Below are positions 45,001-48,000 of a DNA stretch of 64,000 bases, piece by piece. Each line of letters begins with the position of its first letter. Positions within the stretch are counted from its first letter, which is position 1. The DNA is from an uncultured Nitrososphaerota archaeon (lineage in GTDB: Archaea; Thermoproteota; Nitrososphaeria; Nitrososphaerales; Nitrosopumilaceae). Made by a program: the position numbers. The stretch spans positions 160,001 through 224,000 of the forward strand of contig CAWGPD010000003.1 in the NCBI GenBank assembly GCA_963824385.1. Reading direction: 5' to 3'.

Positions 45001-48000
45001 TCAGTTGCATCATCTTCAGTTGCCTCAAAGACTCTGGTGAGTACCCACTGCAAAAAATTATGACCCTTCTCAACCTCATTTTGTGCACTTTCAGCATATT
45101 CTTTTATGCTGTCTTTTACATTTTGTACAAAACCATCTAGTGGTTGACCACCTGTATTCTGATATGAAATAGGTTTTGCGCCTGGAATGTATTCTAGTAG
45201 ATTATTACTTTCTGCCAAATTCACTCTGTCTACAAACCGCTCTATTTAGAAAAGCGGGTTATTATGATATAATTAAAAAGGTGAGGAAGGGATTTGAACC
45301 CCTATAGATTCGCTTTGCAGGCGAACGCATAGCCACTCTGCCACCTCACCGCGATCAAAATGGCTTTATTTGAACAATTAAATCTTTTAGATTAGAATTT
45401 TGAAAATTGCTTTGCTGCAAGTCTAATGTCTTCTGACTTTATCGTCTTTCTACCTGCATGTACTGACATCTCTACTGCATTTTTTGCAATCGAACCACCA
45501 ATCTCTTCTAGTATTCTTCTAAGTTCATTTGCTGATTCATCACTTACTCTTTCTGCACCTGCTTTTTTCAATATTCTATACATTACAGAAAGACCAAATT
45601 CTGTTGTCATACAATAAATCCAAAAACCCATGATAAAAGACTTTGAGTGGAAAAAAACTATGCAAGGATCGATTTATACACACTATTTTGTGCTCAAATA
45701 AGTGATTATGGCTTGGCTGACTGATGCTCATATTCATCTATCAGACAACGAGTACTTGGCTGACTTGGACTATGTACTAGTAGTCATGGATAGATTGAAG
45801 ATCAAGGCATGTTGTGTTTCTATGGATAACACGACTTCAAAATCTACACTTGAACTAAGTAAACGCAGTCCTCTGGTTTTACCATTTATTGGAATTCATC
45901 CTGAAAAAGCAGATGATGATCTAAATGTAATGGTAGAATTGATTAGAAACAATTCAAATAAAATATCTGGAATAGGAGAGATTGGTCTTGACAAAACATA
46001 TGTTTCTGACGAAGTGGGATTTTCAAGACAAGTATTGGTATTCCAAGAGATGCTCTCACTTGCAGAAAAATTAGGAAAACCAGTATCGGTACATTCTAGG
46101 AGAACTCTAGATGAGATATTTTCTATACTCCCGTCTTATTCCATCAAAGGTGTTTTACTTCACTGGTTTTCTGGCAGCAAAAAGCAATTACAAAAAGCAA
46201 TGGAACTTGGATGCTTTGTATCATATGGACCGGCAATGGTTTATTCTCAAGACAAGCAAGTTCTTCTTGAACTTACAGACTTGGATAAAATACTCTTGGA
46301 GACTGATGGACCTGTGAGGTTCTCAAGATGTTTTGGTCTTAAAACCGCACAAATAACATTTCTACCTAGCGTGCTTTTTTGTGCAGCTGGTATATTGAAC
46401 AAGTCATATGATGAAATGTTACTGATTGCAGAAAAAAATGCCAATTCATACCTTGGTGTATAGGTATAAAAAACCCCTTTAGGCAATCAAATCAGTGAAC
46501 AGAATCAGAAAAATTTCCATGGAATTGATGACCACTTATAAAGGAAAATTTGACAATGATTTTGCACACAACAAACAGGTTCTAAACGAAGTTGCAATTG
46601 TAAGATCTAAAGGTCTCAAGAATGAAATCGCAGGTTACATTTCTACATATATCAAACGAGAACTTGAGGAGAAACAAGAAAAAGAAGCTGATGCAGTTGC
46701 TCACAACGAACCAGTTGATGAGACTGAAGAGATTGAAGAGCAGATACTCAACTAGGTTTTTTACAAAAATCCAATATACCACATTCCTTCTTTTGGTAAT
46801 ATGATAACTGTCAGGTTACTGGGAGGTGCAAAAAAGTCATTTTCAACTGATAAGATTGAGATTGAAAGTGACCTTATGACAATATCTAATCTGTTAGACC
46901 ATCTTGAAAAATCCACTCCTAACAATCTTCCACACCTTGATCCCAACAATATTCTTGTTGCAGTAAATGGCGTAGATTCATCTGCATTGCAAGGAAAAGA
47001 GACTTTACTAAAACGTGGAGACATCATAAGTATAATTCCATTAGTTCATGGTGGAAGATCAAAGAGGATACAATTTGCTCTAATGAAAAATACTATAGAG
47101 TTAGTAAGACTCAAAAAAACTACAGAAGATCCAATTACATTTATCGAGTCACTCAGAGAGAAATATCCAAATCTTGTCATCCAAGGAATTGGTGCATCAT
47201 ATGTCCTCAATCCAGAACATGTACAAAAGACAGTTGCCATTTCTTTGTCTGCTCAAAAGGCAGGCACGTTGCTTTCTAATAAAATTGAGACTGATATTCT
47301 AATGAGATTTGCATGTACTAGGCAAATTAGTGACGCAATCTCTAAAGTAGGTGTAAAAAAGAAAGCAGATTCTATATTGATAATAATTGGAAAAAAACCA
47401 TTAATTGAAAAACTCTACAATTACATTGAGGATCTTTTACAAGACAATGTGTTTTCTAAAGATAATTCCACATTGATAAAAAAAGAATTTGGAATAACAA
47501 AAAAGCAACTTGACTGCGTGTTTTCTAAAACGCCCTTGGAGGATCTGCTTGCAGAAAAGTCTGCAACATTATTCCATTGAGTCTCGCTTGAGCTTTAGCG
47601 TACTGACAACATCCTCTTCTCTTAGTATTGAAACGCCTGTTATGCCGCCCATTATCTGAATCATAACATTCCAGTCATAGGATTCTAAAGACACCTTGTT
47701 TGGAATTATGCCTGCAACTGAATCTATAATGCCCTTTGAGGAAATATCCGAGCCTCTTTTTTCAATTGTAATCCTGTATGCGTCTGTATCTTTCATTATT
47801 TTTATTTGGTTTCTCACACTTTCTACTATATTTTCAAGACTAGACGAAGTGGATTGTCTAATGGGAATGAATCTATGACAATATCTCATTCTCCATGGCT
47901 CATCAAGAGTTATCTTTTTGATTTCAGCTATGACAACAAACGGATCGATTTTAGTGTCAACCCAAACTATTCCTGAGAAACTTGACTTGCCAATTCTTGG

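What a model noticed while it worked through the whole genome (the two positions that open the first line are those of the whole stretch)
46801..47580. The only two ubiquitin-like (Urm1/SAMP-type) domains are encoded as N-terminal precursors with an invariant internal HGG [...]
This genome has no free-standing ThiS/MoaD/Urm1-type gene: its two beta-grasp domains are the N-termini of the KEOPS subunit Cgi121 (g01180) and of the E1-like UbaA (g00476, C2:18199-19434), and each ends in Gly-Gly (..IPLVHGG|RSK.., ..LPAVAGG|SEL..) exactly at the domain border. I propose that they are precursors, cut after Gly-Gly by one of the two JAB metalloproteases (g00236, g01756) to release an active Urm1-like modifier or sulfur carrier, as eukaryotes release ubiquitin from ribosomal-protein fusions. 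New would be obligatory proteolytic maturation of an archaeal ubiquitin-like protein and coupling of its synthesis to KEOPS.
Evidence so far: pfam.tsv: ThiS 11-85 + CGI-121 118-236 on g01180; ThiS 18-64 + ThiF 75-307 on g00476. Six-frame search of the genome with PF02597 at E<=1: only these two places plus one sub-threshold TGS hit. N-terminal 120 aa of g01180 found in 25 of 25 Nitrosopumilaceae genomes (22 genera), in open frames of 245-320 aa, one of 559; in my alignment of the 24 fetched loci IP[VIL][IV]HGG is invariant in 24 of 24 while the 2-7 residues after it vary. HGG is also the C-terminus of eukaryotic Urm1 (recalled).
(Added by a program. Inside this text positions count along the whole contig: contig position 160,001 is position 1 of the stretch shown here. 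"Call 12" and the like, gene names such as g00115 and contig names such as C1 are that model's own, and its searches are not shown. The text may have been shortened before it was handed on; [...] marks where a part breaks off. The agent that wrote the report below was given it as the finding of a first reader that could run no searches.)

Follow-up and report, generated by a model that had tools for sequence, protein, structure and literature searches.

The report
Urm1-like precursor fused to Cgi121
This ammonia-oxidising archaeon encodes its Urm1-like sulfur-carrier protein only as the front end of a tRNA-modification subunit, so it probably has to be cut free after a conserved Gly-Gly: a known kind of maturation, seen here with a new partner and not yet shown by experiment.

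Summary
Window 46801-47580 (+) encodes 259 aa: a ThiS/Urm1-type beta-grasp domain (1-85) ending in HGG, then Cgi121 (about 89-259). Six-frame searches find only this domain and one fused to the E1-like enzyme. That holds family-wide: in 61 Nitrosopumilaceae genomes every ThiS match lies in a frame of 245 aa or more.

One correction: the 'ThiS 18-64' E1 gene model is cut short by one extra base in this assembly. Four of four metagenome runs lack it, and relatives have an intact 92-aa domain.

New comparative evidence favours a precursor. In sister families the same Ubl is a separate gene just upstream of Cgi121, ending HGG-stop or HGG plus 1-9 residues. Two family members have re-split exactly there (HGGA-TGA-TTG; AVAGG-stop). 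HGG is invariant in every sequence examined, while the next residue varies. One of the two JAMM proteins resembles PfJAMM1/HvJAMM1. A model threads residues 79-87 into its active site (ipSAE 0.88, best control 0.00), though a like complex is solved.

Cleavage itself is untested. The fusion has been in print since 2010, and JAMM cutting of Ubl linear fusions and archaeal Ubl precursor processing are known. I call it a new member of a known kind, of moderate interest.

The parts
46801..47580 (+). Whole ORF, 259 aa plus stop: Ubl-Cgi121 fusion
   Evidence: It aligns end to end with 30 orthologues.
46801..47055 (+). Urm1/ThiS-type beta-grasp domain, residues 1-85
   Evidence: Pfam ThiS 11-85 reaches profile end 76/76. 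Yeast Urm1 aligns over 3-85. Foldseek matches SAMP1 2L52 and Urm1 2K9X.
47047..47055 (+). Codons CAT GGT GGA = H83 G84 G85. The proposed cut lies after G85 (between 47055 and 47056).
   Evidence: Sequence read. Invariant in 31/31, 20/20 and 120/120 sequences. It is the only stretch of the AF2 model with pLDDT below 50.
47056..47064 (+). Short linker, residues 86-88 (R-S-K). The first two positions are variable.
   Evidence: Position 86 has 8 residue types; position 87 has 10 types plus gaps.
47065..47577 (+). Cgi121 (KEOPS subunit) domain, residues 89-259
   Evidence: The AF2 model's first strand of this domain starts at 89. NCBIfam Cgi121 equivalog covers 103-257. Foldseek top hits are Cgi121 chains 4WW7, 8UP5, 7KJT.
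46495..46755 (+). Ribosomal protein S17e gene, 45 bases upstream on the same strand. This neighbour is conserved.
   Evidence: Pfam. An S17e gene precedes the Ubl in the related loci; Pfam-checked in L035, the other loci judged by eye.
47569..48090 (-). Stand-alone THUMP-domain protein, convergent with the fusion gene
   Evidence: Pfam THUMP 21.2 bits, cut-off 20.6. A similar ORF lies at the same place in L035-L038 and L054, judged by eye.
48087..48677 (-). Sua5/TsaC, L-threonylcarbamoyladenylate synthase (first step of t6A synthesis)
   Evidence: Pfam 174.7 bits. TIGR00057 166.2 bits, cut-off 123.2.

Best explanation
The gene encodes a two-part pro-protein. An Urm1/SAMP-type beta-grasp sulfur carrier or modifier (residues 1-85) is joined through a 3-4-residue linker to the KEOPS subunit Cgi121.

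The fusion arose when the stop codon was lost between two genes that are neighbours throughout the class (S17e - Ubl - Cgi121). I infer that the product is cut between G85 and R86. The most likely protease is the PfJAMM1/HvJAMM1-like JAMM metalloprotease encoded on contig C1 (JAB-A). The cut would release a Ubl with a free Gly-Gly carboxylate, plus an ordinary-sized Cgi121.

The freed Ubl would then be adenylated and thiocarboxylated by the E1-like enzyme. It would serve tRNA 2-thiolation through the NcsA/TtuA-like PP-loop enzyme, and possibly protein modification. The second Ubl, fused to the E1 itself, would be freed in the same way.

Shown: the domain architecture, the invariant HGG, the split orthologues, the natural re-splits, the presence of intact JAMM, E1 and NcsA-like genes, and the lack of any free Ubl gene. 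Inferred: the cleavage, the identity of the protease, and the downstream use.
For: (1) Architecture. The ThiS profile ends exactly at G85 and Cgi121 follows. In the AF2 model (mean pLDDT 90.2, pTM 0.68) only residues 83-85 fall below pLDDT 50. Foldseek finds Cgi121 and SAMP1/Urm1/MoaD folds.

(2) Orthologues. The fusion is full-length in the own family: 80 of 80 genomes have a match, and 78 of those run without a stop. G113 is cut by a contig end (query 1-212). G132, unpublished, is one of the 80. In sister families the same Ubl is a separate gene directly upstream of Cgi121. It ends HGG-stop (G138, G120, G001, and 6 of 6 fetched f7 loci) or HGG plus 1-9 residues (S; CL; SPH; SQG; GLGVRVP; CLRYDGEVE). 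Three of these are Pfam-checked to profile end 76/76, and G138's passes the Pfam Urm1 cut-off.

(3) Natural re-splits inside the family. G053 reads HGG-A-TGA-TTG, with Cgi121 continuing in the same frame. G076 has ThrC followed by a 92-aa Ubl ending AVAGG-stop, and an E1 without the Ubl 0.7 Mb away.

(4) Constraint. H83, G84 and G85 are invariant in 31/31 aligned sequences, including two at 28% identity. They are also invariant in 20/20 further family loci and 120/120 database clusters. HGG is the only run of three invariant columns, and the next position has 8-11 residue types.

(5) No alternative Ubl. In 61 family genomes, 51 of them at least 90% complete, every PF02597 match at E<=0.01 lies in an open frame of 245 aa or more. 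The MoeB/UbaA-type E1 is nevertheless kept: 35 of 36 family genomes have a match, and 33 of those are fused. An NcsA/TtuA-like gene is present.

(6) Protease. There are two Prok-JAB genes per genome in 80/80 family genomes. Both carry E...HxHx7Sx2D. JAB-A best matches PfJAMM1 5LD9/5LDA (E 7e-16) and the NCBIfam desampylase model. In G003 and G034 a JAB gene overlaps the start of a Ubl-E1-rhodanese fusion gene. Genus g26 has no Ubl, no E1 and no JAB match in 0 of 7 genomes, one of them complete.

(7) Complex prediction of JAB-A with residues 1-96. ipSAE is 0.88 and the best of 3 controls is 0.00. That mark was reached by 116 of 157 solved complexes and 2 of 215 mismatched pairs; the counts hold only roughly because my own alignments were used. 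The runs agree in at least 90% of contacts and the partner pLDDT is at least 81. Residues 79-87 touch E27, H85, H87, S95 and D98 of JAB-A.

(8) Precedent. [quoted passage not shown] DRJAMM cuts the natural MoaD-MoaE fusion (PMC8832034, passages).
Against: No experiment or proteomic datum on cleavage was seen.

The linker is only 3-4 residues before the first Cgi121 strand, which may limit protease access.

The complex prediction may be memory of the solved PfJAMM1-SAMP2 complex (5LDA), and it scores binding, not cutting.

JAMM genes are also present where the Ubl already ends in GG-stop (f3 3/3, f7 7/10), so their presence does not discriminate. JAMMs of sulfur-carrier systems also have other jobs, such as the [MetO]-L-cysteine hydrolase Mec (PMC13759103 Table 2).

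JAB-A scores 60.9 bits against the desampylase equivalog, below its 130-bit cut-off.

K88 and R/K89 are semi-conserved, so the junction is not free of other constraints.

Some TtuA/NcsA-type enzymes can take sulfide without a Ubl (recalled), so a free Ubl may not be strictly needed.

The two re-splits are single genomes each. They show that separation is tolerated, not that the fused form is cut.
Confidence: 0.57

Rival explanations
1. The fusion is stable. The protein is never cut, and the beta-grasp domain works as a permanent N-terminal module of Cgi121 within KEOPS. It might recruit the E1 or the NcsA-like thiolase to the same tRNA, or act as a tRNA- or protein-binding adaptor. HGG would be kept because the tail still docks into a partner's pocket or serves as a hinge.
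For: The fusion has been kept in 80 of 80 family genomes and arose a second time in family f12, which suggests an advantage of physical linkage. The linker is very short and K88/R89 are semi-conserved. Makarova and Koonin (PMC2948915, passages) read the fusion as regulation of KEOPS or coordinated functioning with it, without cleavage. No cleavage data exist.
Against: An uncut Gly-Gly has no carboxylate for the E1 chemistry that defines this family. No free Ubl exists in 61 genomes, yet the E1 is kept. G053 tolerates a stop codon one residue after GG. The orthologues in sister families are free proteins. Hinge glycines would not explain the invariant His, nor the variable residue right after GG.
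Confidence: 0.27
2. The protein is a precursor, but JAB-A does not cut it. Maturation is by JAB-B (AfJAMM-like), by another peptidase, or only under certain conditions. JAB-A would instead be a deconjugase, or a hydrolase of Ubl-amino-acid adducts.
For: Two JAMMs are conserved in 80/80 family genomes, and neither is linked to the fusion gene in this genome. The Mec-type role of JAMMs is in print. Only JAB-A was tested in the complex prediction.
Against: JAB-A is the one closest to the two archaeal enzymes shown to cut after the GG of SAMPs. It is also closest to the JAB genes that sit beside Ubl-E1 fusions in G003 and G034: BLASTP E 1e-13 for JAB-A against 2e-5 for JAB-B.
Confidence: 0.1
3. 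Relic. The beta-grasp domain is a decaying remnant of the upstream gene, and HGG is a leftover without function.
For: None beyond the absence of direct functional data.
Against: Twelve invariant columns lie in the domain, including P80, H83, G84 and G85, across sequences down to 28% identity. All 120 database clusters keep HGG. The fold model is confident.
Confidence: 0.03

Closest known systems
Ubl-Cgi121 fusion of Thaumarchaea as described by Makarova and Koonin 2010 (PMC2948915; passages read)
   Same: It is the same fusion. The paper also notes co-transcription with S17e and the Ubl-E1-TBP architecture of the E1.
   Different: The passages propose regulation of KEOPS by SAMPylation or coordinated functioning. 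The terms 'precursor' and 'matur' do not occur in the text, and the two occurrences of 'cleav' are in reference titles. The split orthologues, the re-splits and the family-wide lack of free Ubl genes are not in the passages I read. I did not open the paper's supplementary tables.
Ubl-MoaE linear fusions cut by JAMM proteases: SAMP1-MoaE by HvJAMM1 (PMC4443979), natural MoaD-MoaE DR2607 by DRJAMM (PMC8832034), M. tuberculosis MoaX (cited there)
   Same: An N-terminal beta-grasp Ubl whose Gly-Gly is peptide-bonded to the next domain. A JAMM enzyme cuts precisely after GG. The fusion is inactive until it is cut.
   Different: The partner here is Cgi121, which belongs to a different pathway (t6A), not the Ubl's own enzyme partner. 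No MoaE was found in this genome. Cleavage is not shown here.
Ubiquitin precursor processing by archaeal Rpn11 in Caldiarchaeum subterraneum (PMC6043591, abstract only; C-terminal extensions noted in PMC3082918, passages)
   Same: An archaeal JAMM enzyme exposes the Gly-Gly of a Ubl made with extra C-terminal residues.
   Different: That Ubl is a eukaryote-type ubiquitin with a 9-residue tail, in an E1/E2/E3 operon. Here the Ubl is Urm1/ThiS-type with a whole folded protein behind it.
Eukaryotic ubiquitin-ribosomal protein fusion genes (recalled, not checked here)
   Same: The modifier is made only as the N-terminal part of an unrelated housekeeping protein and is released by cleavage after Gly-Gly. 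Synthesis of the two products is coupled.
   Different: Different protease classes, and a different Ubl family and partner.
Urm1-Uba4-Ncs6 and SAMP2-UbaA-NcsA tRNA 2-thiolation systems (recalled; family names from NCBIfam hits)
   Same: An Urm1-like carrier ending in HGG, a MoeB/UbaA-type E1 and an NcsA/TtuA-like PP-loop enzyme are all encoded.
   Different: None of the three reaches the NCBIfam equivalog cut-offs. The carrier is not free-standing.
MetO/MetM/MoeZ/Mec homocysteine pathway of Streptomyces (PMC13759103 Table 2)
   Same: This concerns the second Ubl. A threonine-synthase-family gene sits directly upstream of the Ubl-E1 gene in 29 of 29 fetched relatives. The genome has two ThrC paralogues, and JAMMs are present.
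   Different: Both paralogues pass the ThrC equivalog cut-off, so neither is shown to be a MetM. The E1 here has no rhodanese domain. This is a lead only.

Membership tests
ThiS/MoaD/Urm1 beta-grasp sulfur carriers (Pfam PF02597) | Profile match over the curated cut-off | tested here: met
   42.3 bits against a cut-off of 22.5; residues 11-85 match profile positions 8-76 of 76.
ThiS/MoaD/Urm1 beta-grasp sulfur carriers (Pfam PF02597) | Beta-grasp fold | tested here: met
   AF2 model with mean pLDDT 90.2. Foldseek matches SAMP1 2L52, Urm1 2K9X/2AX5, CysO 4N6E and MoaD 1FM0.
ThiS/MoaD/Urm1 beta-grasp sulfur carriers (Pfam PF02597) | Gly-Gly at the very end of the domain | tested here: met
   G84-G85 sit at the profile end and are invariant in 31/31, 20/20 and 120/120 sequences.
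ThiS/MoaD/Urm1 beta-grasp sulfur carriers (Pfam PF02597) | Free C-terminal glycine carboxylate that an E1 can adenylate | not testable with these tools
   In the primary translation product the Gly-Gly is internal. Whether it becomes free is the open question.
Urm1 family proper (Pfam PF09138, NCBIfam NF053661) | Profile match over the curated cut-off | tested here: not met
   Pfam Urm1 scores 21.0 bits against 21.8 by hmmscan; the six-frame search gives 21.1, or 23.4 with neighbours. NCBIfam Urm1_like scores 27.4 against 70. It resembles Urm1 but is not filed as a member. The free orthologue in G138 does pass Pfam Urm1, at 30.0 bits.
Cgi121 (Pfam PF08617, NCBIfam NF011465) | Profile match over the curated cut-offs, and the fold | tested here: met
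   45.2 bits against 25 and 120.8 bits against 40. Foldseek top 14 hits are all Cgi121/TPRKB chains.
Cgi121 (Pfam PF08617, NCBIfam NF011465) | Binds Bud32 and the tRNA 3' end within KEOPS | not tested
   Kae1/TsaD and Sua5 genes are present in the genome. I did not search for Bud32.
JAMM/MPN+ desampylases (HvJAMM1/PfJAMM1 type), for JAB-A | Catalytic motif E...HxHx7Sx2D | tested here: met
   E27, H85, H87, S95 and D98 are invariant in 22/22 orthologues; sequences.
JAMM/MPN+ desampylases (HvJAMM1/PfJAMM1 type), for JAB-A | Profile match over the curated cut-off | tested here: inconclusive
   Pfam Prok-JAB scores 70.9 bits against 25, which is met. The NCBIfam desampylase equivalog scores 60.9 against 130, which is not met. 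The best solved relative is PfJAMM1, E 7e-16.
JAMM/MPN+ desampylases (HvJAMM1/PfJAMM1 type), for JAB-A | Cuts after the Gly-Gly of a Ubl | not testable with these tools
   There is only a predicted complex: ipSAE 0.88, best control 0.00.
Ubl linear-fusion precursors matured by JAMM (Ubl-MoaE type) | N-terminal Ubl whose GG is peptide-bonded to a folded partner, with a JAMM gene in the genome | tested here: met
Ubl linear-fusion precursors matured by JAMM (Ubl-MoaE type) | The partner is the Ubl's own enzyme partner (MoaE) | tested here: not met
   The partner is Cgi121. No MoaE was found in the 86%-complete genome. For the second fusion the partner is the E1.
Ubl linear-fusion precursors matured by JAMM (Ubl-MoaE type) | Demonstrated cleavage after GG that is needed for activity | not testable with these tools
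   No data.

The most novel reading that the evidence does not exclude
The fusion is a regulated pro-protein, not just a co-expression device. While attached, the Ubl would hold Cgi121, and so KEOPS, in an inactive or differently targeted state, as covalent SAMP1 inhibits MoaE. A single JAMM cut would then both switch on t6A37 synthesis and release the sulfur carrier for s2U34. One proteolytic event would set the level of two anticodon-loop modifications on the same tRNAs. In this family every ubiquitin-like protein would be born as a polyprotein, an archaeal counterpart of eukaryotic ubiquitin-ribosomal protein fusions.
Probability: 0.15. Interest if true: 0.75.

Novelty: new member of a known kind. 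Interest (0 to 1): 0.5.

Why it matters
If the cut is real, a whole and abundant family of ammonia-oxidising archaea makes its only ubiquitin-like proteins as polyproteins. Its JAMM proteases would then be obligatory maturases rather than only deconjugases.

It would give a second natural class of Ubl linear-fusion substrates beside Ubl-MoaE. It would also tie the synthesis of the Urm1-like sulfur carrier stoichiometrically to a KEOPS subunit, linking the t6A37 and s2U34 pathways that Makarova and Koonin connected only by genomic association.

The family has cultured members, so the prediction can be tested directly with an immunoblot, top-down mass spectrometry or an in vitro JAMM assay.

If the protein is not cut, the case is also informative. 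An Urm1-type domain with a perfectly conserved but buried Gly-Gly would need a function that does not involve E1 activation.

Tried and rejected
(1) A real pseudogene or programmed frameshift in the Ubl-E1 gene. Rejected: contigs of 4 of 4 runs (4 studies) leave out one base at L002 position 1705, and 29 of 29 relatives are in frame. The best-holding run may be the sample of origin.

(2) The '559-aa' open frame reported for one relative (G020). It is a long run-on frame in GC-rich DNA. The homologous part starts at the usual place.

(3) An internal start codon that would make Cgi121 separately. M95 of this protein is not conserved.

(4) A hidden free-standing Ubl. None was found among the 50 small GG-ending ORFs or with five Pfam families. 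The C4 sub-threshold hit is a TGS domain.

(5) JAMM presence or absence as a discriminator between fused and GG-stop lineages. It does not discriminate.

(6) Earlier notes of this scan. Nothing was returned.

(7) Prior proposals of cleavage of Ubl-Cgi121. None was found in four full-text searches, nor in passages of PMC2948915, PMC8565320 and PMC3082918. Subscription-only papers and supplements were not seen.

(9) My own slips. One search had a wrong frame and was corrected. One search was a script error, redone. In one search the regular expression was too strict; redone. In one search a search term was too short; redone. In one search the motif spacing was wrong; redone.
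Full report
WHAT IS THERE. Window 46801-47580 (+) is one open reading frame of 259 codons. Pfam places a ThiS-family domain on residues 11-85, running to the last position of the profile (76 of 76; 42.3 bits, cut-off 22.5). 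It places CGI-121 on 118-236. NCBIfam's Cgi121 equivalog covers 103-257 at 120.8 bits against a cut-off of 40. Residues 83-85 are His-Gly-Gly (bases 47047-47055). The best solved-structure sequence match of residues 1-85 is yeast Urm1 (2PKO/2AX5, E 8e-4). It aligns from end to end, and both sequences finish in HGG. The domain falls just short of Pfam's Urm1 cut-off (21.0 against 21.8) and well short of NCBIfam's Urm1-like and archaeal MoaD models. I therefore call it Urm1-like rather than a member of Urm1 proper.

An AlphaFold2 model built on 31 orthologues has mean pLDDT 90.2 and pTM 0.68. The only stretch under pLDDT 50 is 83-85, and the first strand of the Cgi121 domain begins at 89. Foldseek returns Cgi121/TPRKB chains first, then SAMP1, Urm1, CysO and MoaD for the N-terminal part. 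The neighbours are S17e 45 bases upstream on the same strand, and a stand-alone THUMP protein and Sua5/TsaC on the other strand. This is a small tRNA-modification neighbourhood.

CENSUS. In the window's own assembly (5 contigs, 86% complete), PF02597 in six frames finds this place, the E1 gene on contig C2, and one sub-threshold place on C4. The C4 place is a true TGS domain (60 bits) of a 165-aa Obg-like GTPase fragment next to Kae1. PF09138 finds only this place. PF00240, PF14453 and PF14451 find nothing at E<=1. None of the 50 ORFs of 50-160 aa that end in GG plus at most six residues looks like a beta-grasp protein; I read these by eye.

Because the assembly is incomplete, I repeated the census on relatives. 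In 61 genomes of the family (27 genera, 51 at least 90% complete), 59 have matches at E<=0.01. Every listed match lies in an open frame of 245 aa or more. These frames fall into a roughly 257-275-aa class and a roughly 438-470-aa class, with some longer run-on frames. None of the matches is free-standing.

THE SECOND UBL, AND A CORRECTION. Reading the DNA shows an upstream ATG frame that looks like the missing N-terminal strand and runs into a stop. The E1 frame resumes one base off. All 29 fetched relatives have an intact 438-447-aa protein: a 92-residue SAMP1/MoaD-like domain ending ...LPAVAGG, followed by S and the ThiF domain. Logan contigs of four runs from four studies, 95-99+% identical over the 801 bases laid, all leave out one base at exactly that place. 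The frameshift is therefore an error of this assembly or private to it; one of the runs may be the source sample. A second gene of the pathway, an NcsA/TtuA-like PP-loop enzyme, is likewise split here but intact (306-313 aa) in three relatives. This warns against absence claims based on this assembly alone.

COMPARATIVE ANATOMY. I searched 150 other genomes of the class with the 259-aa protein. All 80 genomes of the own family have a match. In 78 of them the match runs without a stop. G113 is cut by a contig end (query 1-212). G150's stop lies more than 170 residues after GG. G053 is discussed below.

Outside the family the two halves are usually separate genes. In the two sister families of the same order, the Ubl gene lies directly upstream of Cgi121 or overlaps it. 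It ends VVHGGCL-stop, VVHGGCLRYDGEVE-stop, VVHGGS-stop or IVHGG-stop. In G120 it ends VVHGG-stop and Cgi121 lies elsewhere. In family f7 (6 of 6 fetched loci) it ends THGG-stop, and a phosphoribosyltransferase gene sits between it and Cgi121. In f4 and f6 it ends HGG-stop, HGGSPH-stop, HGGSQG-stop or HGGGLGVRVP-stop. I confirmed three of these free proteins and the PRTase with Pfam. Family f12 has an independent fusion (AAHGGAGVHV...). S17e precedes the Ubl throughout; this was Pfam-checked in one related locus and otherwise judged by eye.

The simplest history is an old operon, S17e-Ubl-Cgi121, whose internal stop was lost in the stem of this family. The short and varied tails after GG in several free orthologues mean that C-terminal trimming is already needed in those lineages.

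NATURAL RE-SPLITS. Two family members have separated the halves again, and both did so at the Gly-Gly.

- G053 (99% complete) reads ...CAT GGA GGT GCC TGA TTG AAA..., that is HGG-A-stop. A TTG follows from which Cgi121 continues in the same frame. Its congeners have Arg where the stop is.
- G076 has threonine synthase followed by a 92-aa Ubl ending AVAGG-stop. Its E1, starting a few residues after the usual junction, lies about 0.7 Mb away.

These are single genomes. They show that separation at that point is tolerated, not that the fused forms are cut.

CONSTRAINT. H83, G84 and G85 are invariant in 31 of 31 aligned sequences: 29 from the family including this one, plus two f12 fusions at 28% identity (G132 was left out of the alignment but also has HGG). 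They are also invariant in 20 of 20 further family loci. They are invariant in 120 of 120 database clusters, which are the best 120 of 1042 hits at E<=1e-10; two of those are N-terminally truncated. HGG is the only run of three invariant columns in the alignment. The next position carries 8 residue types in the alignment and 11 in the database set. The position after that carries 10 types plus gaps. K88 and R/K89 are semi-conserved.

PROTEASE CANDIDATES. The genome has two Prok-JAB genes, as do 80 of 80 family genomes. Both carry E...HxHx7Sx2D.

- JAB-A (contig C1) is closest to PfJAMM1 (5LD9/5LDA, E 7e-16). It hits NCBIfam's desampylase model at 60.9 bits, below the 130-bit cut-off.
- JAB-B is closest to AfJAMM.

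In G003 and G034, from other families, a JAB gene overlaps the start of a Ubl-E1-rhodanese fusion gene. Those JABs are nearer to JAB-A than to JAB-B. In genus g26, none of 7 genomes has a Ubl, E1 or JAB match, so the three go missing together.

A complex prediction of JAB-A (22-row alignment) with residues 1-96 (31-row alignment) gave ipSAE 0.88 against a best control of 0.00. That mark was reached by 116 of 157 solved complexes and 2 of 215 mismatched pairs; the counts hold only roughly because my own alignments were used. The runs agree in at least 90% of contacts and the partner pLDDT is at least 81. Residues 79-87 of the Ubl touch E27, H85, H87, S95 and D98. A like complex (PfJAMM1-SAMP2) is solved, so this pass may reflect likeness only.

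WHAT THE FREED UBL WOULD DO. The E1 is of the MoeB/ThiF/UbaA type (ThiF 244.7 bits). An NcsA/TtuA-like enzyme is present. No MoaE was found. The likeliest use is therefore tRNA 2-thiolation, as for Urm1 and SAMP2 (recalled). That would place the carrier for s2U34 on the same polypeptide as a subunit of the t6A37 machine.

For the second Ubl there is a separate lead. A ThrC-family gene abuts the Ubl-E1 gene in 29 of 29 relatives. The genome has two ThrC paralogues, both over the TIGR00260 cut-off. A MetO/MetM/MoeZ/Mec homocysteine route with a ThrC-like synthase is in print (PMC13759103, Table 2). This lead is untested.

LITERATURE. Makarova and Koonin 2010 (PMC2948915; passages) describe the Ubl-Cgi121 fusion, its link to S17e, and the Ubl-E1-TBP architecture. 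They suggest regulation of KEOPS by SAMPylation or coordinated functioning. In that text 'precursor' and 'matur' do not occur, and 'cleav' occurs only in reference titles. Cao et al. 2015 (PMC4443979; passages) show that HvJAMM1 cuts a SAMP1-MoaE linear fusion precisely after GG, in vitro and in vivo, and that the fusion is inactive without the protease. They also note natural Ubl-MoaE fusions predicted to be inactive until cut. PMC8832034 (passages) reports DRJAMM cutting the natural MoaD-MoaE fusion. PMC6043591 (abstract in the listing) reports CsRpn11 processing the CsUb precursor. Four full-text searches and the KEOPS review PMC8565320 (passages) gave no proposal that Ubl-Cgi121 is a precursor. 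Subscription-only papers and supplements were not seen.

VERDICT. The mechanism is the known one, a JAMM cut after the Gly-Gly of a linear Ubl fusion, applied to new partners (Cgi121 and the E1). It has good comparative support but no direct evidence. I give 0.57 to cleavage by the PfJAMM1-like enzyme, 0.10 to cleavage by something else, 0.27 to a permanently fused domain, and 0.03 to a relic. The fusion is in print and the principle is established, so I rate this as a new member of a known kind, of moderate interest, and readily testable in cultured relatives.

Noticed in passing
G000 contig C2, L002 about 1690-1780 (- strand); not in the window: The Ubl-E1 gene carries one extra base that splits off the first ~27 codons. 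Four of four metagenome runs lack the base. It is probably an assembly error.
   Followed up: yes
G000 contig C2, L087 1284-1535 and 1597-2193 (+): An NcsA/TtuA-like tRNA thiolation gene is split into two frames in this assembly but is intact (306-313 aa) in G074, G133 and G040. The 165-aa Obg-like GTPase fragment on C4 (L003 1483-1980) may be a third case. The assembly seems to carry scattered single-base indels, which fits its 86% completeness despite only 5 contigs.
   Followed up: partly
L002 1778-2995 (-) and L143 1024-2355 (-): There are two threonine-synthase paralogues, both over the ThrC equivalog cut-off. One abuts the Ubl-E1 gene in 29 of 29 relatives. By analogy with MetM/MetO/MoeZ/Mec, it might be a thiocarboxylate-dependent homocysteine synthase.
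   Followed up: partly
L100 (G053:C9:234250-235350, - strand): A family member has TGA one codon after HGG, followed at once by TTG and the Cgi121 reading frame. This is a stop-start re-split of the fusion.
   Followed up: partly
L095 819-1208 (-) and L096 1237-2316 (+) (G076): A family member has a free 92-aa Ubl ending AVAGG-stop after ThrC. Its E1, without the Ubl domain, lies about 0.7 Mb away.
   Followed up: partly
L093 907-2785 (G003) and L094 775-2624 (G034): A JAB gene overlaps the start of a Ubl-E1-rhodanese fusion gene in two genomes of other families of the class.
   Followed up: partly
L041, L042, L050-L053 (family f7) and L049 (G003): A ~195-aa phosphoribosyltransferase gene sits directly after the free Ubl gene. 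In f7 it lies between the Ubl gene and Cgi121.
   Followed up: no
window 47569-48677 (-): A stand-alone THUMP-domain protein with no NCBIfam match lies next to Sua5/TsaC, convergent with the fusion gene. A similar ORF keeps this place in related loci. Its role is unknown.
   Followed up: no
L003 498-1980 (-) (G000 contig C4): Kae1/TsaD lies directly downstream of the TGS-bearing GTPase fragment, so another beta-grasp-type domain neighbours a KEOPS gene.
   Followed up: no
Genus g26 of family f8 (7 genomes, handles G006, G010, G022, G026, G030, G077, G099): No match to the Ubl-Cgi121 protein, the E1 or Prok-JAB in any of the 7 genomes (one is a complete single contig). The whole system seems to be missing there. 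Cgi121 was not detected with this query either.
   Followed up: no
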